Origin: Cyanophyceae cyanobacterium
GTDB taxonomy: Bacteria; Cyanobacteriota; Cyanobacteriia; Cyanobacteriales; JBHJGN01
Direction: 5' to 3'
Length of the DNA: 64,000 nucleotides
NCBI GenBank assembly: GCA_050331735.1
Contig: JBHJGN010000024.1
Location: 10,755 to 74,754 of the forward strand
Shown: positions 3,295 to 56,806 of the stretch, one piece after another
Layout of the letters: the number at the start of each line of letters is the position of its first letter
Position numbering within the stretch: position 1 is the first letter of the stretch
Notes under the pieces: generated by a model
Told to the model about the DNA's origin: nothing
The model's input: only the letters and a program-made list of their open reading frames with translations
Databases searched by the model: none
Position numbers and translations under genes: made by a program

Positions 3295-3478
3295 TCGCTG
3301 CGCGACGGGGAGAATCGCTCGCGATGGGGAAAGGGGGAAACTGTCCCTATCGGGACGGGGAAAGAACACAGAAGCGAGTAATCGGCTGAGTCCTCCTTCC
3401 TTTCCCCTTTACCCCTTCCCCTTTACCCGTTGCGGAGCAACTTTTCCCGGCACCTGCGGTGCCCGCAGCGAAGCTGCG
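3295..3478. repeat. Modular purine/pyrimidine-rich intergenic repeat (family C: GGGGAAA/TTTCCCC heptamers plus short hairpins)
   Basis: Shares AAGAACACAGAAG.GAG..AATCGGCTGAGTC and CCCGTTGCGGAGCAACTT with 7372-7570. Confidence 0.75.
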
Positions 3479-7371: not shown

Positions 7372-7570
7372 TTGCTGCGGGACGGGAAAATCGCTGCGCG
7401 ATGGGGAAAGGGGAAAGGAAAAGTTGTCGCGTTCGCGACGGGCCAAGAACACAGAAGAGAGGGAATCGGCTGAGTCACCCCCCTTTACCCGTTCCCCCTT
7501 CCCCTTTTCCCGTTGCGGAGCAACTTCCCCTTTACCCGCGCCCACGGCGCTATGCCTGCGGAGCTTCCGT
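7372..7570. repeat. Modular intergenic repeat family C
   Basis: Similar to 3295-3478; GGGGAAA heptamers and short hairpins. Confidence 0.75.
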
Positions 7571-15529: not shown

Positions 15530-16093
15530 CTATTCTAGTCCAGACGCTAAAACCTGTTTGACGGCGACAGCAAGCTCTAGCTGGTTAGAAATGATGCGGT
15601 CTTCACCCGTAAATACCATCTCGTCGTATAGACCCTCGTTCAATATTAGAACCGTTACTCGCTTCTCCAGCGGATCGACAATCCAATACTCAGGAACACC
15701 TGAAGCTGCATACTCCGAACGCTTATAACGGTAGTCTCGCGTTACTGAGTCAGGGCTAACAATTTCTACCACTAATTGGGGAACCGTCTGAAAAATTGCC
15801 GTTTGATCTAACAGTTCTAGTGCCGCTTCTCTAGGAATAATTAATAAATCGGCAAGGCGCGATTTCTGCCATCCTGTTCTCACCCCAGCTTCTTTAAAGC
15901 AGACCCAAGGTAAAGCTCTGCGTTCTATTTCAGCATCAAAACATTGCTCTAAATACTTAGCGATCAATAGATGTCTGACTCTTGGTGGGTTCATCAATTC
16001 CAACTTGCCATCCACCAATTCATAACGGTTTTCTGTTCCGTTATCGTATTGGCAATACTCCTCAAAACTGTAGATTGCTTCAGTCTCAATCAT
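15530..16093 (-). CDS. Uma2-family (PD-(D/E)xK) endonuclease-like protein
   Basis: RYELVDG, LVVEIVSP, DYRYKRSEYA, GVPEYWIVDP. Confidence 0.92.
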   Translation of the reverse strand: MIETEAIYSFEEYCQYDNGTENRYELVDGKLELMNPPRVRHLLIAKYLEQCFDAEIERRALPWVCFKEAGVRTGWQKSRLADLLIIPREAALELLDQTAIFQTVPQLVVEIVSPDSVTRDYRYKRSEYAASGVPEYWIVDPLEKRVTVLILNEGLYDEMVFTGEDRIISNQLELAVAVKQVLASGLE

Positions 16094-19481: not shown

Positions 19482-19901
19482 ATGTCTCCGCTACCCGACC
19501 ATCGACCCGCTCAACTGTCCTTGGGCCCTTTAGAAGCAGAAATCCTGAGCATTATTTGGGAGTTAGGTTCTGCTACAACCAAAGAAATTCACGAACAAAT
19601 CTTAAGCAACCCAGAGCGAGAACTCGCCTACGCCTCGGTTTCAACCGTCCTGCGTCGTCTAGCTCAAAAGGAGTGGATTAGCTGCGATAAACAGGAGCGA
19701 GCGTTTGTCTGGCGAGCACTCGTTTCTCCACAAGAAGCCAAGATGCTTCAGGCCCACAGTCGCTTACAGCAGTTTCTCGATGTGGGCAATCCCGATGTGG
19801 TCGCTGCCTTTGCCGACCGCTTAGACAGAGCGAGCATCGAGAAAATAGAGGCGATCGCGCAACGCTTACAGGCCATTCGTCAACAGCGGGAGGAAGAATA
19901 A
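19482..19901 (+). CDS. BlaI/MecI/CopY-family transcriptional repressor
   Basis: LGPLEAEILSIIW, LAYASVSTVLRRL. Confidence 0.92.
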   Translation: MSPLPDHRPAQLSLGPLEAEILSIIWELGSATTKEIHEQILSNPERELAYASVSTVLRRLAQKEWISCDKQERAFVWRALVSPQEAKMLQAHSRLQQFLDVGNPDVVAAFADRLDRASIEKIEAIAQRLQAIRQQREEE

Positions 19902-24359: not shown

Positions 24360-25841
24360 CTACAGTAACTGATATTTCTCTTGCAGTCCTAACAGCGCTG
24401 TTTTGGCTTCATCAGCGTTGTCCGCTAAATTAGCAAACTCGATAAACCGCTTCAGTTCCTTGTTCAATAAATTCCGTTCTACTTCCCTGGTTTCGCGCTC
24501 TAGCTCTGGCGGCATTACAATCATGTCAAACAGAGTGGCGCCGGTTTTACCCGCGTGAGGGCGTAAAATCCTGCCGCGTCGCTGAATAAACTGACGCGGA
24601 TTGCCAGTACTCGCTAAAATTACAGCCGTTTGAATTGACGGAATATCGACCCCTTCATCTAAGCAGCGGATGGCGACTAACCCCTGCAATTCTCCCCGTT
24701 CAAACTGCTGCCGCATCGCTTCGCGTTCGGCGAGAGGCGTTTGGGCAGTATAGGTATTGACTCGGTAGCCTAATTCCTTGCCCAAAAGACGAGTCACGGC
24801 TTCTAGCTGACGACGTTCGTAAGCCTCAGCCGTCACTAGCCCATCGCCGCAGTAAAACAGGGTATGATGAGTGTGCAAACGGTTTGCCATGAGCTGTCGT
24901 AGGGCGTTAAGCTTGTTGGCCGCAGCCCCAATCAGGCGCGATCGCTGCATCAATAGCGCCGTTAAAGCGGCGTTGGTTTTCCAGTTGTCATTTTCCGCCA
25001 TTGCCCAGCCAATTCGCTGAGTGAGCTTAGCGTAGGCAAACGCTTCGGCGGTCGTCAGCTCTACTAGAACTGGATAGTAACGGTAGTGAACTAATGCCCC
25101 CTGCTGAATCGCATCGGCCAAAGTAAATTCCGGCTGCAACACTGCCCCAAAATAATGTAGCAAGGTATCTGTTCCCTCCTCATCGAAGTATCTTTCTGGA
25201 GTAGCTGATAGAGCTAATCGAAGGCCGATACTGCGCGGCAAGCTCGCTTCTAGGCGAGGAGAACCAAGATTATGGGCCTCGTCGCCGACAATTAACGTTT
25301 TTTCTGGAAAAAACCGAAGCTGAGACTGAAATCCTTCCCCGATGAGCGTTGAGTTCGTAGTAATAATCGTCAGGAAAGGTTGGCTATTGGAAGTGACGTT
25401 GTATAATTCCGTAGAAAGTTGGCTTTGCCAGTGACGAACGTTTTCAAACGCCAAGACTGGTTTTAGAGCAAATTTCTCGCACTCTCTAGCCCACTGAGTG
25501 ACGAGATGGCGATGCGGACAGAGAACGAGGAGCACCTGTAAACCGATTTTCTGGTACAGTTCTGTGGCAATAGCGAGGGCAGTGATGGTTTTACCACTCC
25601 CCGTGGCCATCTTTAACGTTCCCCGTCCCCGGTTTTTGAACCAACTAACAACGGCTTGCTGCTGATACGGACGCAGGGCGATCACCGCCGGAAATCTTGG
25701 CCGTCCTGACGGTTTGTGCTGGTAATACCCACCTAACTCGGCAACTTTTGTCGGTCGTTGAGCAACATCCCGGGCTAGCCGATCCCAGTCTAGCTCAGCG
25801 ATCCGATTGAACTGAAGACGAGCAACGAGGTCTTGGTTCAT
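24360..25841 (-). CDS. SF2 (ResIII/DEAH) helicase of the 'DNA phosphorothioation system restriction enzyme' type
   Basis: LRPYQ, MATGSGKT, DEAH, LSATP, CLDEGVDIP, FIQRRGRILR; no N-terminal PLD nuclease (HKD) domain. Confidence 0.85.
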   Translation of the reverse strand: MNQDLVARLQFNRIAELDWDRLARDVAQRPTKVAELGGYYQHKPSGRPRFPAVIALRPYQQQAVVSWFKNRGRGTLKMATGSGKTITALAIATELYQKIGLQVLLVLCPHRHLVTQWARECEKFALKPVLAFENVRHWQSQLSTELYNVTSNSQPFLTIITTNSTLIGEGFQSQLRFFPEKTLIVGDEAHNLGSPRLEASLPRSIGLRLALSATPERYFDEEGTDTLLHYFGAVLQPEFTLADAIQQGALVHYRYYPVLVELTTAEAFAYAKLTQRIGWAMAENDNWKTNAALTALLMQRSRLIGAAANKLNALRQLMANRLHTHHTLFYCGDGLVTAEAYERRQLEAVTRLLGKELGYRVNTYTAQTPLAEREAMRQQFERGELQGLVAIRCLDEGVDIPSIQTAVILASTGNPRQFIQRRGRILRPHAGKTGATLFDMIVMPPELERETREVERNLLNKELKRFIEFANLADNADEAKTALLGLQEKYQLL

Positions 25842-26008
25842 TTTTTCTGAGGATAACGATAGCTTCTAGCCCCCTTGGAGATGTAAGCCAGAAAAAACGT
25901 CGTTAAACCCGCCATGCCGAAACTAAACGAGTGCGTGAGGGCGATCGCCGTACCAGCGAGCAGTATCCCTGGCAAATAGGCTGATAGCCTGTCAGTAGAA
26001 GATTTCAT
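25838..26008 (-). CDS. 56-aa putative small membrane protein coupled to the helicase (not in ORF track)
   Basis: MKSSTDRLSAYLPGILLAGTAIALTHSFSFGMAGLTTFFLAYISKGARSYRYPQKK; its TGA overlaps the helicase ATG (ATGA). Confidence 0.55.
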   Translation of the reverse strand: MKSSTDRLSAYLPGILLAGTAIALTHSFSFGMAGLTTFFLAYISKGARSYRYPQKK

Positions 26009-26085
26009 AAAAATAAAGCTATATCCAGCAATTTAGCAATTGATTAGCGTCTTTTCAAGCCATTTTTCTTCTAGCCTTAGTTTAA

Positions 26086-26197
26086 TACCATTTCTGACAA
26101 GTAAAGCTACAGATGTGTAGGAGGGGAAAAGGGGCAAGGGGAAGGGGGAAAGGGTCAAGTCTCTCTTTTTGTGTCGCATCATCATTAAGAGATGGTT
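26086..26197 (+). mobile_element. MITE family A copy
   Basis: TACCATTTCT...AGAGATGGTT flanked by TAA/TAA. Confidence 0.8.
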
Positions 26198-26295
26198 TAA
26201 CTTCATTAAAGCAGCGAAGCTGCGGGAAAAGGGGAAAGGGTTAAGGGAAAAGGTCTTGACAGTTATCAGTTAACAGTTATCAAATCAGCTAGTTA

Positions 26296-26430
26296 TACCA
26301 TTTACCGAAAGTAGTCAGATAGTTCCTTAAACTCACCAAGCATTGGAGGTTCAAGGGCAAAGAGCTGCTGTGCTTCCCTTTCCCCTTTCCCCCAACTCAT
26401 CAAGTCTCCTATTACTTTTTCTAATTGGTA
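26296..26430 (+). mobile_element. MITE family B copy
   Basis: TACCATTTACCGAAAGTAG...CTAATTGGTA flanked by TTA/TTA; near-identical to 53029-53170. Confidence 0.85.
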
Positions 26431-26472
26431 TTAGTTTGGTCACTGTTTCCCCTTTCCCCGTCCCGCAGGAAC

Positions 26473-29400
26473 TTACAAAGCTTGCCTAATCCACTGATGG
26501 GCTCGGTTTGGTCTTGCTTGGAACCCAAAACGATGCAGGAGCTCAACGATTTTGCTTTCTGTCACTCCTGTGCTCATGGCGGCACGTTTCACGTCGAAGC
26601 GAACCTGAATCGGCAAATGCTGCCGTTGCTGGGCCAAGAGTTCGTTCATCTCATCACGGAGCGAATCGCGAACGGCAATATACTGATTTGTGAGCGGGCT
26701 TTTGATGCGTTCTACTGCCGTCTGGACAGCCTGCTCAATTGCGCCAGTATTATCTACCATTGTCAATTCGTGCTTTGCTCCCATCGCGATGAGGCGATCG
26801 TAGATGCAGCGAATCATCTCAAAATGGTCCTGATAGCGCTTGGCATCTCGATGCACGGCTGTTTGGGCGCGGCGAGCAAAATGTTGATAATGCTGGTGAC
26901 GTTCGACTTGAACCACTAGCCAGTCGATATTGAGCAGCTCAAACAGTCTCTCTGCGAGTAATCCTGGCATCAGTACCACTCCTTCTAGAAGAGCAGAGGT
27001 ATTTTGTTTGTGTAAGCGTTTGACTAACCCGGCAACCCCAATGGTGGTGAGAATCGCTTGGCAGTAGTAGGACTCCAGGCTGCCCTCAAACGAAGATTGG
27101 TAGAGACCGGGAAAAGCGCGAGCCGCCTCCTCTCCAAATAGAAACTCCAAAATTGCTTTAGTATTAGCTCGTCCCGCCTCATCGGTAGAAAAGACCTTCT
27201 GTATATTGAAGCGCTGTGCGAGGTGCGTACACAGAGTTGATTTGCCCGATCCGGTAGCTCCGCTTACCAAAACAATCGTTGGTTTTGTAATGTCTTTCCA
27301 GCGCGGCAGATCGTAGACCCGCAGCATCACCCCCCGAACGAGCTGGTAGAGGTCTGCGGCTGAAAATTGATCGCGCATCGGGTCGAGAAGTGCATGGCGA
27401 TAGAGCGTCGTTTCTAAGCGGTCTTTCAGCGATTTCCAGCGGTGGTATTGCTGAAAGTAGGTACTTTCTAAGTGATTAATGTCTTCCTCCCACTCAGCCA
27501 CCATATTTTCTAGCGGGACTAAATCGAGCGCTGGTTGTTGGGCTTCGTGTTGAAGCTCGTGATACCAGCGATTGAGCCGCTGAGATGAAGGGGGGTCAGC
27601 TTCAGTTTGCCGCAGGTCTTCAAAACAGCGTTCTACGGCTTGCCACGGTACCACTCGTACCGACTGCAAAACGAGAAGCTGTTGCAGCAGTTGCTGCATA
27701 AATTGCTTGAGTGAAGGCAAATCGTTGACCTTAGTGTGCAGCAGATGGAGCAGTGCCTGCACAATTTGCTGATGAGAGACTTCCAAAGCGTTGATGTAGT
27801 CGCCAATTTTCCGCTTTAGCTCTGGCAAGAGTTTTTTCTTGAGAAAAGATTTGCTGTCGTGAAGATTTCCTAAATCAGCAGTCAGTTCCTGCGGCACCTC
27901 GGTTTCCTGCCAGGGATAGAGATCCCGATTCTGATCGAGAAACAGGGCGGAGGTTTCAAAGAGTTCTAGCACCACCTGACGTGCCGTATCGTAGGTATAT
28001 TCGGGTAAAACAGCCAGGCGATCGATCAGAGCATACTGGCGCTCCACGAGCTGACCGAGTTTGAAATGAGTGGTGTACAGTTGTTTGTAATGTTGCTGAA
28101 TTAGCGTGTAAATGTGCTGATCGGTGAGCAGTTCGCTGATGGATGGATGTTGAGCCTGCGCCTGCCAAATCAGCTTTTCATGACGAATGCGAAACGGCAT
28201 TAGCCGCTCTAGAACCTGCTGAGCCTTCGCGGCTAGAGGCGTTTGAGAGGCTGTGAGTTCTCGGAGGGTGCGCACAACGTGTTTAAGCTGTTCCTGTTCC
28301 AGCAGCTCTTGCACCACACTTTGCTCCTCTAGAGTCTGCCCCCGATTCGCATCGTAGTGAATGCCCATGATGCCTTCGCAGGCAAAGGCGCGATCTAGAT
28401 TTCTCGTTTTGTCATCGATAAAAATGGTTTGCTGAGCAATCTGCTCGTAGTGCTGCGTCCAAAAGTCGTCCCATTGCTGACGAAAAGAAGCCAAGGCCAC
28501 CGGAGCATGACCAAGTTCCTTGAGAAAGTGATTGTACTGGGTGAGGGCCGCTTGAGAGTCGGGGCGATCGCCTGAGGCAAAAGTCGCTCGCCAGAGCTGA
28601 TGCAGCATCGGATTGGGAAAGTTGACCCCAAGCACCTCTTGAGCAAACCGATCGAGGAAAACGTGCTGTTTAAAGGAGCGATAAATTTTAGGATCGGGTT
28701 TACTGGCTCCAAAGGTTTCAGAAACAATCGCGACTAGCCCCTGGAGGTAGTCAAACTCATGCTGGCCGAGGAAGTATTCAATTTTTGCCATAAAGTTGTT
28801 GGTTAACCCGTACTGACGAATTCCCAAAAGATTGATGCGGTGCAGAACCGAGCGGTTCTCGTGCTTGGCATCGTAATGGCTATAGTAGAGGGTGAGGAAA
28901 TGACGAATTTCGGCATCCGTAATCTGAATCTGCTTTCCGATTTCGGCAAAAGCGGTATTAAAGGTTTCAATGGCGTGACGAGCAAACTGTTCGGGAGTGG
29001 CCTGACCGATTTTAAGAGCATCATAGTTGACTCCTGGAACCGGCTCGCCTTTAAAAATGGTGCGCCAAATCTGCGTTAATTGCTCTTGGGGTAACTCACC
29101 CCCCTTGTCGTGAGCGTAAAGCTCCACAAAAAATTGATTATGGCCATCCATCAACACCCCACCAAAATCCCAGGCGATCGCCGCAGGACTGTGAACGCGC
29201 AGCAGCGTTTGTTCTATTCGTTCTAGAGCGTACCGCCTTACCTCCTCAGGTCCATTCTTGACAAGCTCTAAATATCCAGCAATATATTCTAGTCTGTCGC
29301 AATCGTCTTGCTGATAATCAGGTTCTGTCTGTTCTTCGAGCTTGTACATTAAGGTCTCAGCCTCGACAACTGGGTTCTGACTCCAATGGCTTAAGAGCCG

Positions 29401-29577
29401 CTCAACTCTTTGAGCTAGTGGCGGGAGTTGCTGTTGACGTTTGTGATGTAGATAATCCTTCAGCAAGTCCTGAGGAGTTTGCCGTGTCGTTTGCTGCCGC
29501 TCGTGGGTTAACAATCGAATTGCCAATATTTGTGGAACCATCACCAAGCCTGCTCTAAGTATCTCTCTCATTGTCAT
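26473..29577 (-). CDS. Large fusion: HAD-like phosphatase + helical linker + 2-phosphoglycerate-kinase-like P-loop domain
   Basis: HAD motifs WDFGGVL / LTNN / SKPDPKIY / IFIDD; C-terminal SGATGSGKST, STD, LLEGVVLMPG, RYQDHFEMIR. Confidence 0.75.
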   Translation of the reverse strand: MTMREILRAGLVMVPQILAIRLLTHERQQTTRQTPQDLLKDYLHHKRQQQLPPLAQRVERLLSHWSQNPVVEAETLMYKLEEQTEPDYQQDDCDRLEYIAGYLELVKNGPEEVRRYALERIEQTLLRVHSPAAIAWDFGGVLMDGHNQFFVELYAHDKGGELPQEQLTQIWRTIFKGEPVPGVNYDALKIGQATPEQFARHAIETFNTAFAEIGKQIQITDAEIRHFLTLYYSHYDAKHENRSVLHRINLLGIRQYGLTNNFMAKIEYFLGQHEFDYLQGLVAIVSETFGASKPDPKIYRSFKQHVFLDRFAQEVLGVNFPNPMLHQLWRATFASGDRPDSQAALTQYNHFLKELGHAPVALASFRQQWDDFWTQHYEQIAQQTIFIDDKTRNLDRAFACEGIMGIHYDANRGQTLEEQSVVQELLEQEQLKHVVRTLRELTASQTPLAAKAQQVLERLMPFRIRHEKLIWQAQAQHPSISELLTDQHIYTLIQQHYKQLYTTHFKLGQLVERQYALIDRLAVLPEYTYDTARQVVLELFETSALFLDQNRDLYPWQETEVPQELTADLGNLHDSKSFLKKKLLPELKRKIGDYINALEVSHQQIVQALLHLLHTKVNDLPSLKQFMQQLLQQLLVLQSVRVVPWQAVERCFEDLRQTEADPPSSQRLNRWYHELQHEAQQPALDLVPLENMVAEWEEDINHLESTYFQQYHRWKSLKDRLETTLYRHALLDPMRDQFSAADLYQLVRGVMLRVYDLPRWKDITKPTIVLVSGATGSGKSTLCTHLAQRFNIQKVFSTDEAGRANTKAILEFLFGEEAARAFPGLYQSSFEGSLESYYCQAILTTIGVAGLVKRLHKQNTSALLEGVVLMPGLLAERLFELLNIDWLVVQVERHQHYQHFARRAQTAVHRDAKRYQDHFEMIRCIYDRLIAMGAKHELTMVDNTGAIEQAVQTAVERIKSPLTNQYIAVRDSLRDEMNELLAQQRQHLPIQVRFDVKRAAMSTGVTESKIVELLHRFGFQARPNRAHQWIRQAL

Positions 29578-29629
29578 ATACAGACTTCAGACTCGAACAA
29601 GTTTCTTCGCCCAAGGGAGAAGCCGCTTT

Positions 29630-29835
29630 CGCGGCGGGAAAAGGGCAAAGGGGAAGGGGGAAAGGGAGGAATGAATGAGCTTGTTCCTCGGCTCTGTGTT
29701 CTTTCCCCGTCCCAGAGGGACTTTCCCTTTCCCCGTTCCGGAGGAACAGTTTCCCCTTTCCCCATCCCAGAGGGACTTTCCCTTTCCCGTCGCGTACTTC
29801 CTGCGGAAGAACTGCGTAAACGCGACATTTCCTTG
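29630..29835. repeat. Modular repeat family C, upstream of treS
   Basis: GGGAAAAGGGCAAAGGGGAAGGGGGAA, CCGTTCCGGAGGAACAGTTTCCCC and CTTCCTGCGGAA.AACTGCGTAAACGCGACATTTCC shared with 33263-33439. Confidence 0.85.
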
Positions 29836-29945
29836 TCAGTATAATTGGCAAGGGCAGATTAATAGCGTAAGCTAGCGGGTTTTCCTGCTAAATTTGTGTC
29901 AGTATCTATTCCTGTGACACTCAATCCTCCAGCAACCAGACAGCT

Positions 29946-32900
29946 ATGCAACACTCGCTTCTCAAAGACGATCCCCTGTGGTTTAAAGATGCCGTGATTT
30001 ATGAAGCGCCAGTTCGGGCATTTGCCGACAGCAATGGCGACGGTATTGGCGATTTTCGGGGCTTGACAGAAAAGCTTGACTACCTCAGAGATTTAGGCGT
30101 GACAGCCGTCTGGATACTGCCCTTTTTTCCTTCTCCGCTGCGAGATGACGGCTACGATATCGCTGATTACGGCAACGTTAATGCCATCTACGGTAATTTA
30201 GATGACTTTCAAGCGTTTCTCGATGCGGCCCACGAGCGAGGCATCCGCGTCATTATTGAGTTAATTGTTAACCATACATCCGATCAGCACCCCTGGTTTC
30301 AACGGGCGAGAAAAGCTCCCCCCGGCAGTAAGGAGAGAGATTTTTATGTGTGGAGCGATACGCCAGATAAGTTTCCAGACGTGCGCATTATTTTCCAGGA
30401 TTACGAAACCTCTAACTGGGCGTGGGATCCAGTAGCGAAAGCGTATTACTGGCATCGCTTCTACTCTCATCAGCCTGATTTGAACTACGACTCTCCAGAG
30501 GTCCAGCAGGCAGTACTTAATATTGTTGATTTCTGGCTTCAGATGGGGGTAGATGGTATGCGTCTAGATGCGGTCCCCTACCTGTGCGTTGAAGAAGGAA
30601 CGAATTGCGAAAATCTTCCCGGGACTCATGCCTTTCTCAAGAGTTTGAGAGCGCATATTGACCAGAAATTCCCGAACCGGATGTTGCTCGCGGAAGCGAA
30701 TCAGTGGCCCGAAGATGCCGCCGCCTACTATGGAGAAGGCGATGAGTGCCACATGAACTTTCATTTTCCCCTGATGCCGCGCCTGTTTATGGCGCTGCGC
30801 ATGGAAAACAGCTTTCCGATCATTGATATTTTGCAGCAAACGCCTGCTATTCCCGATAACTGTCAGTGGGCGCTGTTTTTACGGAACCACGACGAATTGA
30901 CCCTAGAAATGGTCAGCGATGAGGACCGGGACTATATGTACCGGGTGTATGCTCAAGATCCCGATGCCCGTCTCAATTTGGGCATTCGCCGTCGGTTAGC
31001 TCCCCTACTGGGCAACGATCGCCGACAAATCGAGCTGATGAACGGGCTGCTGCTGTCTTTACCGGGAACTCCGGTGCTGTACTACGGTGACGAAATCGGC
31101 ATGGGCGATAATATATACCTTGGCGATCGCAACGGAGTGCGGACGCCGATGCAGTGGAGCGCCGACCGCAATGCCGGGTTTAGTCGTGCCAATCCCCATC
31201 GGCTCTACTTCCCCGTAATTTTAGAATCAGAGTATCACTACGAAGCAGTCAACGTGGAGGCGCAGCAAAGCAACACTAATTCGCTGTGGTGGTGGATGAA
31301 GCGCCTGCTGGCCACGCGGGCGCGGTTCAAAGCCTTTGGTCGCGGCACCTTTGAACTCCTGCATCCAGAAAATCGCAAAGTGCTTGCGTTTGTTCGCACC
31401 TACGAGGGCGAACACATTTTGGTAGTAGCCAATTTGTCGCGCTTTGCCCAAACCGTCGAACTTGACTTGACTCCCTTCAAAGGAATGATTCCGGTGGAGA
31501 TCTTCGGACAAACGAAGTTTCCCGCCATTGACGAATCGAGCTATTTTCTCAGCATTAGTCCGCACGCGTTTTACTGGTTTACGCTTCAGTTCCAAGATCT
31601 CTACCAGCTTCCTTACCCGAAAGCTGAGCCACCGCTGATTACCGTCAACGGCAAGTGGCAGAACGTGTTTGCCCAAAGCGAAGCTCAAAAGTCTTTAGAA
31701 TCGAGCCTGTCAGCTTATCTATACTCCTGTAGCTGGTTTGGACGCCACCGAACCATCCAATCTACTCACATCATCGAAGCGATTCCCATTGCCTACAAAG
31801 ATCGAGAAGCGGTGCTGACGCTTGTTCGGGTAGAATACACCGAAGGAACGCCAGAAATTTACGTGTTGCCTTTCGCCTATGGCACCGCTCATCCAGAAGG
31901 GGAAATTGCCAAAATTCAAACGAGCGAAGAGACGGGTGTGTTGTTTGATGCCTTGGCAGACAAAGACTTTTTAACCATTCCCCTAGAGGCGGTTGCTAAA
32001 GAACGAACGTATCAGGGGAAATCCGGTGAACTCAGAGCAGCGGCGACGGAAACCTTTGCGTCTCTATCGCAAGCGGTTAGCAATATCACCCCCCATCTGT
32101 TCCGAGGAGAGCAAGATAATAGCTCAATCGTTTATGGTGATCGCTTTATTCTTAAAGTTTATCGTCGAGTGGAAGCGGGCATCAATCCAGACTGGGAACT
32201 CGGTCGCTTTTTGACCGAAACCGCTGGCGACCTCGTCGCTCCAGCCGCGGGCGTGATTCGCTATCATCCCCGACAGGGAGACTGGATCACCGTCGCGGTG
32301 CTGCAAGGATATGTTTCCGATACCATCGATGCCTGGTCCTATACACTCGATAATTTGCGGGATTATTTCAACCGGATTATGGTCGAACAGACCGCGCTGG
32401 ATGAGGTTTATCTCCCCGACTCCATGAGAACTGTTCAATCTTTGGAAATTCCCGATTTTGTCTACGAAAGTATTGGCTCTTATCTCGTTTCGGCCCAGCA
32501 GTTAGGACAGCAAACCGCACAGCTCCATATGACTTTGGCCGCTGAAACGGACAATCCAAATTTTAAGCCAGAGCCGTTTACCTCTTTCTACCAGCGCTCT
32601 ATCTACCAATACAGCCGCAATCTTGCCGGACAGGTCTTGCTCTCGCTCAAAAACCAGCTCGACCAGCTTCCAGAGGCGACGCAGCAGTTAGCTCAAATCG
32701 TTCTCAATCGGCAAGCTCAAATTCTAGAGGGCTTTCGCGCTGTGCTAGATTATAAAATTGCCGCGATGAGAACCCGCTGTCACGGGAAATACCATTTAGG
32801 TCAGGTGCTGTATACGGGCAAAGATTTTTTGATCACCGACTTTAAAGGCGAAACTAATCGGCCCTTAAGCGAACGGCGGATGAAGCGATCGCCTTTGCGA

Positions 32901-33245
32901 GACGTAGCGGGTATGCTTCAGTCATTCAACTTTGCTGCTAGACTGGCTCTGCGTCGAGAACTAGAAAGCGGCATCATGCGTCCAGATAATCTACCGCTAA
33001 TGGAGCAGTGGAGTCACTTTTGGTATAGCTGGGTGAGCGCAGCCTTTCTCAATGCCTATCTAACGACTGCCGATCAAGCGGCCTTCTTGCCCAAGTCAGA
33101 TGCCGAACTCCAGGTGTTGCTGGATGCCTACCTTTTGGAGAAAGCGATTCAAGAGTTAAATAGCCAACTCCAGAATCCCCATCCTGAGTGGTTAGACATT
33201 GCTCTGCAATGGATTTCTCAACTGCTAGGAGCGGAAAGCGTCTAG
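29946..33245 (+). CDS. treS: Trehalose synthase (maltose alpha-D-glucosyltransferase) fused to a maltokinase-like domain
   Basis: GH13 motifs DDGYD, NHTSDQHPWF, RLDAV, LAEANQWPED, FLRNHDELTLE; C-terminal Mak/Pep2-like domain (HLGQVL, SPLRDVAGM). Confidence 0.95.
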   Translation: MQHSLLKDDPLWFKDAVIYEAPVRAFADSNGDGIGDFRGLTEKLDYLRDLGVTAVWILPFFPSPLRDDGYDIADYGNVNAIYGNLDDFQAFLDAAHERGIRVIIELIVNHTSDQHPWFQRARKAPPGSKERDFYVWSDTPDKFPDVRIIFQDYETSNWAWDPVAKAYYWHRFYSHQPDLNYDSPEVQQAVLNIVDFWLQMGVDGMRLDAVPYLCVEEGTNCENLPGTHAFLKSLRAHIDQKFPNRMLLAEANQWPEDAAAYYGEGDECHMNFHFPLMPRLFMALRMENSFPIIDILQQTPAIPDNCQWALFLRNHDELTLEMVSDEDRDYMYRVYAQDPDARLNLGIRRRLAPLLGNDRRQIELMNGLLLSLPGTPVLYYGDEIGMGDNIYLGDRNGVRTPMQWSADRNAGFSRANPHRLYFPVILESEYHYEAVNVEAQQSNTNSLWWWMKRLLATRARFKAFGRGTFELLHPENRKVLAFVRTYEGEHILVVANLSRFAQTVELDLTPFKGMIPVEIFGQTKFPAIDESSYFLSISPHAFYWFTLQFQDLYQLPYPKAEPPLITVNGKWQNVFAQSEAQKSLESSLSAYLYSCSWFGRHRTIQSTHIIEAIPIAYKDREAVLTLVRVEYTEGTPEIYVLPFAYGTAHPEGEIAKIQTSEETGVLFDALADKDFLTIPLEAVAKERTYQGKSGELRAAATETFASLSQAVSNITPHLFRGEQDNSSIVYGDRFILKVYRRVEAGINPDWELGRFLTETAGDLVAPAAGVIRYHPRQGDWITVAVLQGYVSDTIDAWSYTLDNLRDYFNRIMVEQTALDEVYLPDSMRTVQSLEIPDFVYESIGSYLVSAQQLGQQTAQLHMTLAAETDNPNFKPEPFTSFYQRSIYQYSRNLAGQVLLSLKNQLDQLPEATQQLAQIVLNRQAQILEGFRAVLDYKIAAMRTRCHGKYHLGQVLYTGKDFLITDFKGETNRPLSERRMKRSPLRDVAGMLQSFNFAARLALRRELESGIMRPDNLPLMEQWSHFWYSWVSAAFLNAYLTTADQAAFLPKSDAELQVLLDAYLLEKAIQELNSQLQNPHPEWLDIALQWISQLLGAESV

Positions 33246-33262: not shown

Positions 33263-33439
33263 TGGGGAAAAGGGCAAAGGGGAAGGGGGAACGGGATGAA
33301 CTAGACAGCTTGTTCCTTAACCCTGTGTTCTTGACCTGTCCCGTGCTTCCTGCGGAAAAACTGCGTAAACGCGACATTTCCCTTGCCCCTTTCCCCGTTC
33401 CGGAGGAACAGTTTCCCCCTTCCCCGTCCCTACGGAACA
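33263..33439. repeat. Modular repeat family C, downstream of treS
   Basis: Same modules as 29630-29835 in a different order. Confidence 0.85.
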
Positions 33440-36382: not shown

Positions 36383-38383
36383 TTAAGATTCTCGTCCAGT
36401 AGCCCAGCGATCGCGCCACTTAACCGTTCCTTCACTAGCGATTACCCAGCGGCGACAGACCAAGTTTTCCCGCAGCGGAGATTGTCCGGCTCGCCAGATG
36501 GCATATTTGTAGGCAATCAGTTGACCGACACTTTCTTCAAAGGGAATCTCACCGAACCAGGTATTGGAGTTGATGTATTCTAGCGGATAAGCTTTAGCAA
36601 TATCCCAGTTCCCTAATTCTGGGCAGTCTCCGGTGACGACGACGGTTTCTCCCGGTTGAGTCTGTACGCCGTTAAGCTGAACGCGCACAATCGTTTGTCC
36701 TTTCACCCGTTCTCCCACATGACTGAGAACAATCACCTGTTTCGAGTCGAGGGCCAAATTGTAGAGATGTCCGTCCTCTACTTCCAGCTTGTTCACCGAC
36801 ATTACATCCGTGTGTTCTCCATTCGGTAACTCGGTGTCAACGGCTTCAACGGTGGTTGGTTCTCCCCGGTTCATCGCCACAAATAGCACCGAATCTCGAT
36901 AGCGACGCACATAGCAGTACACGTCAGGAGTAATGTATTTTTGCCACTGACCGCCCATAGAAACGGCGGGATTCAGTCGCCGCAACCCAGAAAGGAGGCG
37001 AATCTCCCGATAGATATCGGTATCAGCATCCCAGGTCTCCATCATTGGGCGGTTGTAGGGATCGTTATTGCCGTAGGGATTGCTGTCGCCATTGGTATCG
37101 TTGTGCAAGTACTGTTCTGTACCGTAGTACAGACAGGGAATCCCGCGAGCCGTCATCACGAAAGCTACGGCCAAACGCAACGCGTCTGGGTCGGGGTTGA
37201 GGGTTTGGAACCGATGCATGTCATGATTGTCGATAAAAGTGACGAGTTCAGTCGCGCCGTCGTAGCGATCATCAAGATCGAGAATGTCCTGAACTAAGTA
37301 GAAACCTTGCTCATCGTAAGTGCCCAAAGCCTGACGAACGGCCATCGCCAAGCCAAAATCCAAGAGCGTAATCCCAGCATTGTTGGCAAATTCTACAGAA
37401 CGCTCGTCTTCAGGATGGTTGTAGATCCATTCCCCAAACATAAACACGTCTGGTCGATGGGACTGAATATCGGCGCTGAACTCTTGCCAGAACCAGATTG
37501 GCATGTGTTTGACAGTATCAATCCTCAGGGCATCTACGCCCCGGTCTAGCCACTGCTTGATGGCCGATTTAATATAGTTGCGATACTCAGTATTATTTTC
37601 ATTGAACGTTGCTAACCCAGAGAGTTCGCCGTTTTGCACCTGCCACTCGTCTTCCCAATTCGTGATGATGCCGTAGTGGTGATACCAGCCGTTGTTGTCG
37701 TTGTTAAAGTCGGCAATTTTCACGCCATCGTCGTAGAGTTCGCCTTTTTTGCCGCTGAAATCAGGATTACTATGGTTACAAACGATGTCTAAAATTAGCT
37801 TCATGTTCCGCTGATGTAGTTCATCAATCAGGCGGTCGAAGACAGTATTTCGGGTTTCCTGTGTTTTGTTGAGGGAAGGCTCTTCTCCTTTGGCAATGTA
37901 GCGCTGGTTGAGACGTTTAAAATCTTTGGTCCAGTAACCGTGAATGGCGGCTTGCTCAATAAATAAAGCTTCGACTTGTTCAAACAAGGGCGTTAACCAT
38001 AAGGCGGTCACGCCCAAGTTTTTTAAATAGTCCAGCTTATCGATGATTCCTTGCAAATCTCCGCCCCAGTATTTACCCCAATCTTGCTGTTCTGGATCGT
38101 ATAGTTCCGGGTTTGGTCCCTCGCTATTATTGGGGTCTCCATCGTAGAAACGGTCTACCACCACAAAATAAATGGTTTCTTGGCGAAACTCAATATCTCT
38201 GGTGTAGAGAAAGTCAAGGTCTACATCGCTTTCTGGTGGGGGTTCGGTAACGAGCGTTTCTACCTTCGCGTCCGCTTCTGGTTGAGGAACTTCGTACTGA
38301 GAGCGGGACGATCTCAGAGTGGGGTCTGCTGTGGATGGGCTAGCCTGAGCTTGAGAAGGATCGGAGGGAGGATGTGCAACCAT
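36383..38383 (-). CDS. GH13 alpha-amylase/CGTase-like glycoside hydrolase with C-terminal CBM20
   Basis: DRFYDGD, GGDLQGI, HGYW, RIDTVKH, FGEW, FIDNHD, GDCPELGNWD (CBM20); no signal peptide. Confidence 0.92.
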   Translation of the reverse strand: MVAHPPSDPSQAQASPSTADPTLRSSRSQYEVPQPEADAKVETLVTEPPPESDVDLDFLYTRDIEFRQETIYFVVVDRFYDGDPNNSEGPNPELYDPEQQDWGKYWGGDLQGIIDKLDYLKNLGVTALWLTPLFEQVEALFIEQAAIHGYWTKDFKRLNQRYIAKGEEPSLNKTQETRNTVFDRLIDELHQRNMKLILDIVCNHSNPDFSGKKGELYDDGVKIADFNNDNNGWYHHYGIITNWEDEWQVQNGELSGLATFNENNTEYRNYIKSAIKQWLDRGVDALRIDTVKHMPIWFWQEFSADIQSHRPDVFMFGEWIYNHPEDERSVEFANNAGITLLDFGLAMAVRQALGTYDEQGFYLVQDILDLDDRYDGATELVTFIDNHDMHRFQTLNPDPDALRLAVAFVMTARGIPCLYYGTEQYLHNDTNGDSNPYGNNDPYNRPMMETWDADTDIYREIRLLSGLRRLNPAVSMGGQWQKYITPDVYCYVRRYRDSVLFVAMNRGEPTTVEAVDTELPNGEHTDVMSVNKLEVEDGHLYNLALDSKQVIVLSHVGERVKGQTIVRVQLNGVQTQPGETVVVTGDCPELGNWDIAKAYPLEYINSNTWFGEIPFEESVGQLIAYKYAIWRAGQSPLRENLVCRRWVIASEGTVKWRDRWATGRES

Positions 38384-38587
38384 AGATTTTTTAAAGTACC
38401 TGGAACACAAAACGATGTCTCCTAAGATTACAAAATTTTACAAATTACCGAAATACATCTTTGGATAGGAGAATAGGCAGTCGCCACCAGTCGGCTCAAC
38501 CCCCCAGTGATGAATAGATTTTCATTAAGATTAAGATAGTAGAGGAACCAGCTCTCGTCGCCGATTAGGGCTACTCGGAGTCTTTCT

Positions 38588-56758: not shown

Positions 56759-56806
56759 AGGGGAAAGGGGAAAGGGGAAAGGGGAAAGGGGAAAGGGGAA
56801 AGGGAA
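56759..56806. repeat. Heptameric short tandem repeat (GGGGAAA)n
   Basis: About six consecutive GGGGAAA units between convergent genes. Confidence 0.9.

What the first reader, a model, noticed from the sequence alone, without database searches (positions are those of the whole stretch)
26473..29577. Unusual HAD-phosphatase + 2-phosphoglycerate-kinase-like fusion, divergent from treS
Seen: HAD motifs I-IV (WDFGGVL, LTNN, KPDPKIY, FIDD). A second cap-like segment (FLDRFAQ..LHQLWRATF, echoing FVELYAH..LTQIWRTIF) sits between motifs III and IV. A long helical linker follows, then an intact Walker A (GATGSGKST) in a domain matching the 2-phosphoglycerate kinase pattern (STD, EGV.L.PG, Y..F..IR.I, DN). 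Known: archaeal 2-PGK makes 2,3-bisphosphoglycerate for the solute cDPG, and bifunctional kinase/phosphatases such as PFK2/FBPase2 control signal metabolites. Inference: a writer/eraser enzyme for an unknown phosphorylated metabolite linked to trehalose/glucan stress metabolism. I do not recognise this architecture as described.
Basis: partly seen in the sequence, partly recalled or inferred. Interest (0 to 1): 0.85.

Follow-up and report, generated by a model that had tools for sequence, protein, structure and literature searches.

The report
Rare cyanobacterial HAD phosphatase–2PGK-like kinase fusion
A real, conserved but very rare 1,000-residue cyanobacterial protein joins a phosphatase-type domain carrying an extra inserted lid to a kinase related to archaeal 2-phosphoglycerate kinase; it probably adds and removes phosphate on one small metabolite, but its position next to the trehalose gene is not conserved.

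Summary
Window 26473..29577 (-) is one 1034-codon ORF; the library copy starts at M13. It has invariant HAD motifs I-IV, an extra ~80-residue four-helix unit between motifs III and IV, ~340 helical residues, then an intact P-loop kinase that matches 2-phosphoglycerate kinase models (E 1.4e-28) far below their cut-offs.

New here:
- Motif I is D-F-G, so the general-acid Asp is missing, as in E. coli glucose-1-phosphatase YihX.
- The tail is predicted as a winged-helix-like beta-alpha-alpha-beta-beta unit.
- The family is tiny: 24 clusters, every source-named one cyanobacterial; 1 of 401 genomes in each of two samples, the window's own.
- The treS link is not supported. None of 4 related loci with flanks shares any neighbour with the window.

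The kinase/phosphatase pairing is supported. This HAD subtype and this kinase subtype recur together in three unrelated larger proteins, in both orders. The kinase module is also fused to PEP-synthase-type ATP-grasp domains (5 of 20 scanned) and once to a bona fide phosphoglycerate mutase.

Best reading: a bifunctional kinase/phosphatase acting on a phosphorylated hydroxy-acid, with 2-PG/2,3-BPG the leading candidate. The substrate is unproven. This is a new variant of known kinds and is uncharacterised.

The parts
26473..29577 (-). Whole ORF, 1034 codons plus stop. The likely true start is M13 at 29541, giving 1022 aa.
   Evidence: the library copy P0005 starts at residue 13; starts of long homologues align there
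29323..29541 (-). Optional N-terminal helical extension, residues 13-85. It is present in about a third of family members and absent from the matches in loci L001-L005.
   Evidence: alignment A1; tblastn matches begin at query residues 74-85
28303..29316 (-). HAD-type phosphatase module, residues 88-425, including two leading helices (residues ~92-130) that are conserved with remote relatives.
   Evidence: PF00702 25.5 bits; TIGR02247 E 8.8e-5; the A1 profile hits the HAD regions of P0029, P0033 and P0047 at E 8.8e-53, 5e-45 and 2.2e-33, and those of P0029 and P0033 pass the Pfam cut-off (30.9 and 28.6 bits)
29137..29181 (-). HAD motif I, residues 133-147 (AIAWDFGGVLMDGHN). It has the nucleophile D137; the +2 position is Gly139, not Asp.
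   Evidence: invariant in 21 of 21 sequences; same D-x-G pattern in E. coli YihX and D-L-G/G/A in P0029, P0033 and P0047
28858..29151 (-). First (canonical C1-position) helical cap, residues ~143-240, with the invariant NYDALKIG motif.
   Evidence: model helices, pLDDT 77-95; 5-6 structure-search rows align it to caps of solved HAD enzymes, Z 4.9-6.5
28792..28812 (-). HAD motif II, residues 256-262 (YGLTNNF; T259).
   Evidence: invariant
28681..28707 (-). HAD motif III, residues 291-299 (ASKPDPKIY; K293).
   Evidence: invariant S292, K293, P294; aligned to YihX RKPEARIY by hhalign
28429..28671 (-). Family-specific insert between motifs III and IV, residues ~303-383. Together with the motif III helix it is predicted as a four-helix unit (residues 296-383): a second cap.
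   Evidence: absent from P0029, P0033, P0047 and YihX; pLDDT 79-95; 12 of 50 VIA rows align model 211-306 to cap residues of HAD structures, Z 4.8-7.2
28399..28428 (-). HAD motif IV, residues 384-393 (TIFIDDKTRN; D388, D389).
   Evidence: invariant; predicted strand 384-388
27934..28194 (-). Conserved helical segment, residues ~462-548 (profile positions 404-490). In relatives it precedes each kinase module.
   Evidence: matched separately in P0029-P0052, directly upstream of kinase modules; long helices, pLDDT ~90
27286..27933 (-). Rest of the helical middle region, residues 549-764. It includes a low-confidence stretch (542-575) and the pre-kinase extension (residues ~688-764) that is shared with Thermoplasmatota and giant relatives.
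   Evidence: no Pfam family at E <= 10 other than chance-level rows
26623..27285 (-). P-loop kinase core of the 2-phosphoglycerate kinase superfamily, residues 765-985.
   Evidence: PRK04220 E 1.4e-28, PRK12337 1.4e-24, PRK12338 1.4e-19, PRK12339 2e-7; Foldseek adenylate/UMP-CMP kinases E 3e-5; VIA gluconate kinases Z 13.2 and 13.1
27235..27261 (-). Walker A motif, residues 773-781 (GATGSGKST).
   Evidence: G773, G776, G778, K779 and S780 are invariant even when remote relatives are included
26476..26610 (-). Family-specific C-terminal tail, residues 990-1034, predicted as beta-alpha-alpha-beta-beta (winged-helix-like).
   Evidence: model pLDDT 79-91; no non-family hit extends past profile position 954 of 993; no Pfam support

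Best explanation
The gene encodes a stand-alone, bifunctional small-molecule enzyme with two opposed or linked activities.

Kinase. The C-terminal domain is an ATP-dependent P-loop kinase. It belongs to a distinct subfamily of the 2-phosphoglycerate kinase superfamily and is always preceded by its own helical module. According to the names of the NCBIfam models it matches, the superfamily's named members (2-phosphoglycerate kinase; mevalonate-3-phosphate 5-kinase) both turn a phosphorylated hydroxy-acid into a bisphosphate.

Phosphatase. The N-terminal domain is a YihX-like type-IA HAD phosphohydrolase. It has a nucleophile Asp, no Asp+2, and two helical lids instead of one. It would remove a phosphate from the kinase's product or from a metabolite one step away.

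Joint action (inferred). Together the two domains would set the level of a bisphosphorylated acid. The leading candidate pair is 2-phosphoglycerate / 2,3-bisphosphoglycerate.

Extras (inferred). The second lid would enclose the substrate or gate the phosphatase. The winged-helix-like tail may tie the enzyme to DNA or to a partner.

Shown: domain identities, conserved catalytic residues, the insert, and the recurrent co-fusion of the two modules.
Inferred: both activities, the shared substrate, its identity, and any regulatory role.
For: 1. Kinase homology: PRK04220 E 1.4e-28, with three further models of the same superfamily. The next tier of library hits are canonical 2PGK-type proteins (14 scanned, PRK04220 212-361 bits, 2 of 14 above the cut-off).
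2. Kinase catalytic set: the Walker A residues and R803, R854, S829 and S861 are invariant even with relatives of 22-30% identity in the alignment. Many conserved arginines fit an anionic substrate (inference).
3. HAD residues D137, T259, K293, D388 and D389 are invariant.
4. E. coli YihX, annotated in RefSeq as alpha-D-glucose-1-phosphate phosphatase, has the same D-x-G motif I. A missing Asp+2 therefore does not by itself imply a dead enzyme.
5. Co-fusion: among the best 150 library hits, 4 non-family proteins match the HAD module (P0029, P0033, P0047, P0163). Three of them also carry the kinase module: kinase-then-HAD in P0029 and P0033, HAD-then-kinase in P0047. The fourth is a 145-aa fragment.
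6. Fusion partners of the kinase module point to C3 phospho-acid chemistry. PPDK_N (PEP-synthase-type ATP-grasp) occurs in 5 of 20 relatives scanned. P0030 carries a cofactor-independent phosphoglycerate mutase that passes its equivalog cut-off (TIGR01307, 504 bits against 330.65).
7. The kinase model is confident (pLDDT 84.8, pTM 0.78). It resembles small-molecule and NMP kinases: gluconate kinases at Z 13.2 (rmsd 2.7, 159 aligned) and Z 13.1 (rmsd 3.1, 165 aligned).
Against: 1. No activity has been measured for any member of this subfamily.
2. The kinase scores far below every NCBIfam equivalog cut-off (100 against 343 bits), so it is not a 2PGK orthologue and the substrate may differ.
3. 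The HAD domain lacks the general acid/base Asp. Its Rossmann-like core was modelled poorly (pLDDT below 50 for residues 257-292, mean 68.7), and Foldseek gave no hit at E <= 0.001.
4. Pfam HAD is just below its cut-off for this protein (25.5 against 26.4).
5. Only 1 of 20 scanned relatives carries the mutase, so the phosphoglycerate link rests on few proteins. Those come from unnamed metagenome sources, or from Thermoplasmatota MAGs for the tandem-kinase forms.
6. There is no conserved gene neighbourhood to indicate a pathway.
7. I know of no reported role for 2,3-BPG in cyanobacteria beyond that of a mutase cofactor (my knowledge).
Confidence: 0.5

Rival explanations
1. The two domains catalyse sequential, non-opposing steps of one pathway rather than a writer/eraser pair. 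The kinase would make a phospho-acceptor. After an intervening step by a separate enzyme, the HAD domain would remove the phosphate, as in the synthase/phosphatase routes to compatible solutes.
For: The co-fusion of the HAD and kinase modules is equally compatible with consecutive steps. The giant relatives string several different enzymes together: PPDK_N, tandem kinases, HAD, phosphoglycerate mutase and a xylose-isomerase-like TIM barrel. That looks like a pathway assembly line. HAD phosphatases commonly finish solute pathways (established knowledge).
Against: No glycosyltransferase or other bridging enzyme is fused or conserved nearby: 0 of 4 loci with flanks share neighbours with the window. 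The cyanobacterial protein contains only these two catalytic domains.
Confidence: 0.18
2. The HAD domain is a sugar-1-phosphate phosphatase of the YihX type acting on maltose-1-phosphate or glucose-1-phosphate. The protein would then work with the neighbouring TreS-maltokinase to control flux into alpha-glucan.
For: Motifs I-IV follow the YihX pattern (D-x-G-x-V; S/T-N; KPxxxIY; F-x-DD). The divergent neighbour is a TreS-maltokinase fusion that passes both TIGR02456 and TIGR02457 cut-offs. An alpha-amylase with CBM20 lies 6.8 kb away.
Against: The adjacency is seen only in this genome; none of 4 related loci with flanks has treS or any glucan gene conserved beside the homologue. The hhalign match to YihX is weak (E 0.016, probability 2.9%, 62 columns). 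This reading does not explain the 2PGK-type kinase or the mutase and PPDK_N fusions.
Confidence: 0.1
3. The protein is mainly a sensor or regulator. One or both catalytic-looking domains bind a metabolite, and the winged-helix-like tail binds DNA, as in enzyme-repressors of the NadR or BirA kind.
For: A family-specific C-terminal beta-alpha-alpha-beta-beta unit is predicted with pLDDT 79-91 and contains invariant residues F994, D995, R998, F1017-F1019 and W1029. The HAD domain lacks Asp+2. The gene stands alone with no operon partners.
Against: The tail has no sequence match to any DNA-binding family, and its fold could not be searched on its own. All catalytic residues of both domains are invariant, which argues for catalysis. 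Remote relatives keep both modules without the tail.
Confidence: 0.12
4. It is a nucleic-acid end-healing enzyme like polynucleotide kinase-phosphatase (a HAD 3'-phosphatase plus a P-loop 5'-kinase). It might work with the PbeA-like helicase encoded downstream.
For: The domain pair is of the same general kind as PNKP (established knowledge). A polynucleotide kinase appears among the fold matches (4gp6, Z 10.2). The next gene downstream is a PbeA-like defence helicase (E 1.6e-159). The gene is rare and patchily distributed.
Against: The kinase is specifically related to 2PGK-type small-molecule kinases, and the polynucleotide kinase ranks below about 40 metabolite and NMP kinases. The PNKP-type DxDxT motif is not met, since position +2 is Gly. 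The helicase is not conserved beside homologues. PADLOC gives only P-loop-level hits for the protein.
Confidence: 0.05

Closest known systems
Archaeal 2-phosphoglycerate kinase (Methanothermus fervidus 2PGK; NCBIfam PRK04220, COG2074)
   Same: The P-loop kinase cores are homologous (E 1.4e-28 over profile positions 83-294 of 306). Walker A, the STD motif and the lid arginines are conserved. 2PGK converts 2-PG to 2,3-DPG on the way to cDPG (PMC12136491, passages read).
   Different: The score is 100 bits against a cut-off of 343. The first ~80 profile positions are not matched. Instead there is a ~340-residue helical module, an N-terminal HAD domain and a C-terminal tail. The host is a cyanobacterium. 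No cDPG pathway is implied.
Mevalonate-3-phosphate 5-kinase (NCBIfam PRK12339)
   Same: It is in the same kinase superfamily (E 2e-7). By the model's name it too phosphorylates an already phosphorylated hydroxy-acid, which supports a bisphosphate product as a family trait (inference).
   Different: The match is much weaker than to the 2PGK models. It is a single-domain enzyme of about 190 residues.
E. coli YihX, alpha-D-glucose-1-phosphate phosphatase (HAD type IA)
   Same: The motif pattern is the same, including Gly at the Asp+2 position: IFDLGNV against AWDFGGV; LSNT against LTNN; RKPEARIY against SKPDPKIY; FFDDN against FIDDK.
   Different: The profile match is only weak (hhalign E 0.016, 62 columns). 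YihX has one cap and 199 residues. The window protein has a second four-helix unit between motifs III and IV and is fused to a kinase.
PFK-2/FBPase-2 and polynucleotide kinase-phosphatase (bifunctional P-loop kinase plus phosphatase proteins)
   Same: Both are single polypeptides that pair a P-loop kinase with a phosphatase acting on the same phosphoester position. PNKP also uses a HAD phosphatase (established knowledge).
   Different: PFK-2/FBPase-2 uses a histidine-phosphatase fold. PNKP acts on nucleic-acid ends and has a DxDxT motif I. Neither kinase belongs to the 2PGK family. The resemblance is in logic, not descent.
Uncharacterised multi-domain relatives found here (P0029, P0030, P0033, P0035, P0041, P0047, P0048; Thermoplasmatota MAG proteins P0031, P0036, P0179)
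   Same: They share the helical-segment-plus-kinase module (E 1e-57 to 1e-82). In P0029, P0033 and P0047 they also share the HAD subtype with its leading helices and NY.ALKI cap motif.
   Different: They are 800-6500 residues long, often have two tandem kinase modules, and carry PPDK_N, phosphoglycerate mutase or TIM-barrel domains. They lack both the second cap and the C-terminal tail.

Membership tests
HAD superfamily phosphohydrolase (Pfam PF00702) | Motif I nucleophile Asp at the end of strand 1 | tested here: met
   D137 is invariant in 21 of 21 sequences and ends the predicted strand 133-137.
HAD superfamily phosphohydrolase (Pfam PF00702) | Asp at nucleophile+2 (the general acid/base of phosphatases and mutases) | tested here: not met
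   G139 is invariant. Relatives have G, G or A at this position. The same substitution occurs in E. coli YihX, which is annotated as an active glucose-1-phosphatase.
HAD superfamily phosphohydrolase (Pfam PF00702) | Motif II Ser/Thr, motif III Lys, motif IV acidic pair | tested here: met
   T259, K293, D388 and D389 are invariant.
HAD superfamily phosphohydrolase (Pfam PF00702) | Profile score above the Pfam gathering cut-off | tested here: inconclusive
   The window protein scores 25.5 bits against 26.4. The homologous modules of P0029 and P0033 score 30.9 and 28.6 bits and are linked to this protein at E 8.8e-53 and 5e-45.
HAD superfamily phosphohydrolase (Pfam PF00702) | Rossmann-like core fold | tested here: inconclusive
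   The core, residues 257-292, has pLDDT below 50. Foldseek gave no hit at E <= 0.001. VIA whole-domain matches are beta-phosphoglucomutase 5olw (Z 6.5, rmsd 7.9, 122 aligned) and 3qnm (Z 5.3, rmsd 6.6, 164 aligned).
2-phosphoglycerate kinase (NCBIfam PRK04220 / PRK12337 equivalogs) | Score above the curated equivalog cut-off | tested here: not met
   100.1 bits against 343, and 86.5 against 603.
2-phosphoglycerate kinase (NCBIfam PRK04220 / PRK12337 equivalogs) | Homologous P-loop kinase core with Walker A and lid arginines | tested here: met
   E 1.4e-28 over profile positions 83-294. G773-T781, D799, R903, R910 and R914 are invariant.
2-phosphoglycerate kinase (NCBIfam PRK04220 / PRK12337 equivalogs) | N-terminal part of the profile (positions 1-82 of 306) | tested here: not met
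   The match starts at profile position 83. The preceding residues form a different helical module.
2-phosphoglycerate kinase (NCBIfam PRK04220 / PRK12337 equivalogs) | ATP-dependent phosphorylation of 2-phosphoglycerate to 2,3-bisphosphoglycerate | not testable with these tools
   This needs an enzyme assay.
YihX-like HAD type IA phosphatases | D-x-G motif I, S/T-N motif II, KPxxxIY motif III, F-x-DD-x-x-x-N motif IV, single C1 cap | tested here: inconclusive
   The motif pattern is shared. The profile comparison is weak (E 0.016, probability 2.9%, 62 columns). The window protein has a second cap-like insert.
Polynucleotide kinase-phosphatase (PNKP) | HAD motif I DxDxT, and a kinase of the PNK family | tested here: not met
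   Motif I is D-F-G-G-V. The kinase's sequence relatives are 2PGK-type.
Winged-helix DNA-binding domains | Sequence or fold match of the C-terminal tail to a known wHTH family | tested here: inconclusive
   Only the topology, beta-alpha-alpha-beta-beta, is predicted. Pfam gave one chance-level row (PF24410, E 0.18) for 1 of 6 tails scanned.

The most novel reading that the evidence does not exclude
The protein is a self-contained metabolic switch that writes and erases a bisphosphorylated acid, 2,3-bisphosphoglycerate or a relative. In this reading the compound is used as a signal or protectant in a few stress-tolerant cyanobacteria. The duplicated HAD lid acts as a gate that makes the phosphatase conditional, and the winged-helix-like tail couples the enzyme's state to DNA binding. 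The same kinase-HAD pair, in archaeal and metagenomic megaproteins fused to dikinase and phosphoglycerate mutase domains, would then mark an undescribed branch of lower-glycolysis-derived phospho-metabolism shared by archaea and bacteria.
Probability: 0.12. Interest if true: 0.75.

Novelty: new variant of a known kind. Interest (0 to 1): 0.5.

Why it matters
- Only two activities are named among the NCBIfam models of the 2PGK superfamily, and sequence searches found no solved structure of it. Its members outside methanogens are of unknown function, including (recalled, not checked here) the plant low-phytate LPA1 proteins.
- A subfamily that is repeatedly welded to a dedicated HAD phosphatase, to dikinase ATP-grasp domains and once to phosphoglycerate mutase gives a concrete, testable handle on what these kinases phosphorylate.
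- A HAD domain with a second four-helix lid inserted between motifs III and IV is an arrangement I do not know from the described C0/C1/C2 cap classes (my knowledge, not searched in the literature).
- The practical pay-off is modest. The family is rare and its physiological role is unknown. The work also removes a misleading lead, the treS link.

Tried and rejected
1. Synteny with treS. 5 related loci were fetched and 4 have flanks. No ORF of at least 100 aa within +/-12 kb of the window gene has a homologue (E <= 1e-8) near any of them, except an unrelated histidine-kinase domain match. Only the two Brasilonema loci share flanks with each other. The pattern scan behind one search is not exhaustive: it missed the Pleurocapsa PCC 7327 and Myxosarcina GI1 proteins named.
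2. Defence-system reading. PADLOC gave only Walker-A-level hits for the protein (mad8 E 2.3e-6 over 35 residues).
3. PDB by sequence. The single sequence and the family profile found no relative, only P-loop scraps at E 0.015-0.58.
4. Foldseek on the HAD model found nothing at E <= 0.001. PFK-2 and other bifunctional kinases were not among the rows listed for the kinase half. Their absence from a list excludes nothing.
5. The middle region and the tail were barely tested by fold search, because the kinase fills the list. The ESM Atlas gave no usable hit for residues 425-755. Pfam at E <= 10 gave only chance-level rows.
The echo rests on reading by eye (about 9 identities in 28 aligned positions) and on the structural rows.
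7. The listing of cluster members could not be run because the database was off. The taxonomy of the giant relatives is therefore unknown, except for three Thermoplasmatota MAG proteins. P0033 has only metagenome sources.
8. P0032 and P0047 exceed 5000 residues and could not be scanned against Pfam.
9. There is no Rfam match in 25700-30100.
10. The promoter and terminator scans were at or below shuffle expectation.
11. No RNA holder was listed for the gene, so expression is untested.
12. Literature. Five searches found no paper on this architecture: '2-phosphoglycerate kinase'+cyanobacteria, +HAD, +mevalonate-3-phosphate, 'COG2074', and YihX. One search was rejected for a comma in the term.

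Full report
**1. The observation.**

Window 26473..29577 (minus strand) is one uninterrupted ORF of 1034 codons. The protein library holds the same protein from Met13 (1022 aa). Family members with long N-termini begin at the equivalent position, so 29541 is the likelier start.

In a 21-sequence alignment of full-length homologues (53-69% identical to the window protein, mean column identity 68%) these residues are invariant:
- HAD residues D137, T259, K293, D388 and D389.
- Kinase residues G773, G776, G778, K779, S780, T781, D799, E865-V867, R903, R910 and R914.

Pfam gives HAD (PF00702) 25.5 bits over residues 133-303, just under the 26.4 cut-off. NCBIfam matches the kinase region as follows:
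- PRK04220, 2-phosphoglycerate kinase: E 1.4e-28, residues 760-964, profile positions 83-294 of 306.
- PRK12337: E 1.4e-24.
- PRK12338: E 1.4e-19.
- PRK12339, mevalonate-3-phosphate 5-kinase: E 2e-7.

All four are far below their equivalog cut-offs. The divergent neighbour at 29946..33245 is a TreS-maltokinase fusion that passes both of its NCBIfam cut-offs.

**2.

(a) Motif I is A-W-D-F-G-G-V. The nucleophile Asp is present, but the +2 position is an invariant Gly. In HAD phosphatases that position normally holds the general acid/base Asp. E. coli YihX, annotated in RefSeq as alpha-D-glucose-1-phosphate phosphatase, has the same D-x-G arrangement and closely similar motifs II-IV. The substitution therefore does not by itself mean a dead enzyme. 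The profile comparison with YihX is weak, however (hhalign E 0.016, probability 2.9%, 62 columns).

(b) The stretch between motif III and motif IV is an insertion.
- The HAD modules of three remote relatives (P0029, P0033, P0047) and YihX pass from the KP..IY helix to the F-x-DD strand without it.
- In the AlphaFold model of residues 80-430 the insert, together with the motif III helix, forms four helices (residues 296-383, pLDDT 79-95). The canonical cap, residues ~139-250, is also helical and well predicted.
- In the representative-wide VIA search, at least 17 of the 50 listed rows are HAD enzymes by title. Twelve of them align model residues ~211-306 (protein ~290-385, the insert) to chain residues ~6-108 of those enzymes. 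Five or six align the first cap in the same way.
- The Z-scores are only 4.8-7.2. The tool itself warns that this range is common for helical bundles, so the structural support for a 'second cap' is suggestive, not strong.
- The sequence echo between the two caps was read by eye only.

(c) The HAD core is poorly modelled (pLDDT below 50 for residues 257-292, mean 68.7). Foldseek found nothing at E <= 0.001.

(d) Residues 425-1034 fold confidently (mean pLDDT 84.8, pTM 0.78).
- Long helices fill the N-terminal part.
- Residues 542-575 are a low-confidence stretch.
- A P-loop kinase core spans residues ~765-985.
- A C-terminal beta-alpha-alpha-beta-beta unit spans residues 990-1031.
- The kinase core resembles adenylate/UMP-CMP kinases by Foldseek (E 3e-5, TM about 0.65 on the target). 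By VIA it resembles gluconate kinases (3t61: Z 13.2, rmsd 2.7, 159 aligned; 1knq: Z 13.1, rmsd 3.1, 165 aligned).
- No solved structure is related by sequence.
- The winged-helix-like reading of the tail rests on topology alone. Pfam gives nothing for 5 of 6 tails scanned and a chance-level wHTH row (E 0.18) for the window's.

**3. Distribution and context.**

The word-indexed search of 5.8 billion proteins found 24 clusters. Every cluster that a source names to an organism is cyanobacterial: Pleurocapsa PCC 7327, Myxosarcina, Hydrococcus, Coleofasciculus, Scytonema and Brasilonema. Automatic names include '2-phosphoglycerate kinase/FMN phosphatase YigB (HAD superfamily)'.

In two evenly drawn samples of 401 genomes each, one of the phylum and one of the order, the protein was found only in the window's own genome: 1 of 401 each time. 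The samples overlap and are samples, so this is 'not found in those searched', not 'absent'.

Five related loci were fetched, and four have flanks. No neighbour within +/-12 kb of the window gene recurs beside any homologue. Only the two Brasilonema loci resemble each other. Neighbours elsewhere include a PAS-GGDEF-EAL protein, a UDP-glucose dehydrogenase fragment, HtpG, a fatty-acid desaturase and an aminotransferase. The gene is therefore a stand-alone unit, and the treS adjacency is peculiar to this genome.

**4. Remote relatives.**

A profile of the family was run against 1.84 billion representatives. It gave 870 hits at E <= 0.001 and 26 at E <= 1e-30. After the family itself come large multi-domain proteins (P0029 3015 aa, P0030 3482, P0032 5866, P0035 2401, P0041 2682, P0047 6541, P0048 2954) and mid-sized ones (P0031, P0033, P0036-P0046).

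Re-scoring them with the profile shows two portable modules.
- A helical segment (profile positions 404-490, protein residues ~462-548) followed by a pre-kinase extension plus kinase (profile positions ~640-940). This module is often present twice in tandem.
- The HAD module with its two leading helices, found in P0029 (directly after a kinase), P0033 (after a kinase) and P0047 (about 670 residues before a kinase).

Among the best 150 hits, four non-family proteins match the HAD module. Three of them also carry the kinase, and the fourth is a 145-aa fragment. No non-family hit covers the insert (profile positions 228-323) or the tail (beyond position 954).

Of 20 relatives scanned with Pfam:
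- 5 carry a PPDK_N ATP-grasp domain directly upstream of the helical-plus-kinase module.
- 2 carry PF00702 above its cut-off.
- 1 (P0048) carries a PEP-utilisers mobile domain and a xylose-isomerase-like TIM barrel.
- 1 (P0030) carries a cofactor-independent phosphoglycerate mutase. It passes its equivalog cut-off (TIGR01307, 504 bits against 330.65).

Three tandem-kinase relatives are named as Thermoplasmatota archaeon MAG proteins. The origin of the others is unknown, because could not be run and one search returned only metagenome sources. The next tier of hits (E about 1e-22) are canonical 2PGK-type proteins: 14 were scanned, with PRK04220 scores of 212-361 bits and 2 above the cut-off.

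**5. Mechanism.**

What is shown:
- Two catalytic-looking domains with fully conserved active-site residues.
- A dedicated HAD subtype that travels with a dedicated kinase subtype in both orders.
- Fusion partners that handle PEP/pyruvate-type and phosphoglycerate substrates.

What is inferred:
- The kinase phosphorylates an anionic phospho-hydroxy-acid. The two activities named by the NCBIfam models it matches (2-PG to 2,3-bisphosphoglycerate, as in PMC12136491, passages read; and mevalonate-3-phosphate to the 3,5-bisphosphate, from the model name) both make bisphosphates.
- The HAD domain removes a phosphate from that product or a near neighbour.
- The protein therefore sets the level of a bisphosphorylated acid, 2,3-BPG being the first candidate.
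- The second lid gates or encloses the substrate.
- The tail adds DNA or partner binding.

I give the bifunctional small-molecule reading 0.5. Within it, I give the specific 2-PG/2,3-BPG pair about 0.2 overall. The rivals are:
- consecutive pathway steps, 0.18;
- a mainly regulatory protein, 0.12;
- a YihX-like sugar-1-phosphate phosphatase working with TreS-Mak, 0.10;
- nucleic-acid end healing, 0.05.

**6. Comparison with known families.**

The protein works like a kinase/phosphatase pair of the PFK-2/FBPase-2 or PNKP kind, but it is not a member of either.
- It is a member of the 2PGK superfamily by homology, but not of the 2PGK equivalog family. The cut-off is not met and the N-terminal part of the profile is not matched.
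- It is a HAD-superfamily domain by motifs and by transitive homology, with an atypical motif I and an atypical second cap.

COG2074 was described as a characteristically archaeal gene shared with Thermus and Deinococcus (PMC1274311, one passage read). That fits the archaeal relatives seen here.

**7. Novelty and verdict.**

The architecture is recognised domain by domain in automatic annotation, but it is uncharacterised. No paper on it was found in five searches. It is a new variant of known kinds. The treS-based physiological story is not supported. Interest is moderate (0.5), for three reasons:
- A recurrent kinase-HAD pairing gives a way into an under-studied kinase superfamily.
- The double-capped HAD is unusual.
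- Against that, the family is rare and its role is unknown.

The earlier scan finding e1-3517060 (a PPDK-type ATP-grasp fused to a phosphoglycerate-kinase-like module in another genome) concerns a different kinase family. I note it only as a parallel lead, and it was not tested here.

Noticed in passing
window 24360..25841 (-): The next gene downstream is a 493-aa ResIII/Helicase_C helicase. It matches the PADLOC PbeA models at E 1.6e-159, but only over profile positions 241-681 of 682, so it lacks the N-terminal third. The 631-bp gap up to the studied gene holds no ORF that could supply that third. I did not look for PbeB-D genes.
   Followed up: partly
window 26116-26464, 29636-29789, 33264-33425 and other intergenic sites (e.g. 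3326-3428, 7403-7537, 56760-56804): Clusters of a 7-nt tandem unit (GGGGAAA and variants) give 62 matches to GGGGAAAGGG with at most 1 mismatch, against 4.25 expected. They often form a plus-strand cluster followed 70-250 nt later by a minus-strand cluster, that is, long imperfect inverted repeats. Such pairs lie in both intergenic regions flanking the studied gene and just after treS. They resemble the heptamer STRR repeats of cyanobacteria (recalled, not tested).
   Followed up: partly
proteins P0029, P0030, P0032, P0035, P0041, P0047, P0048 (library hits, not in the window): These are megaproteins of 2400-6500 residues. They string together PEP-synthase-type ATP-grasp domains, one or two 2PGK-like kinase modules, a HAD module, a phosphoglycerate mutase (P0030) or a xylose-isomerase-like TIM barrel with a PEP-utilisers mobile domain (P0048). 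Their origin is unknown. Smaller tandem-kinase relatives are named as Thermoplasmatota MAG proteins.
   Followed up: partly
window 29946..33245 (+) and 36383..38410 (-): A TreS-maltokinase fusion of 1099 aa passes both the TIGR02456 and TIGR02457 cut-offs. An alpha-amylase with a CBM20 starch-binding domain lies nearby. Between them are a truncated-looking histidine kinase (289 aa) and a CRP-family regulator.
   Followed up: no
window 15530..16093 (-) and 19482..19901 (+): A Uma2-family putative restriction endonuclease and a BlaI/MarR-type repressor lie upstream of an alpha/beta hydrolase and an ABC exporter. These are ordinary accessory genes, noted only for context.
   Followed up: no
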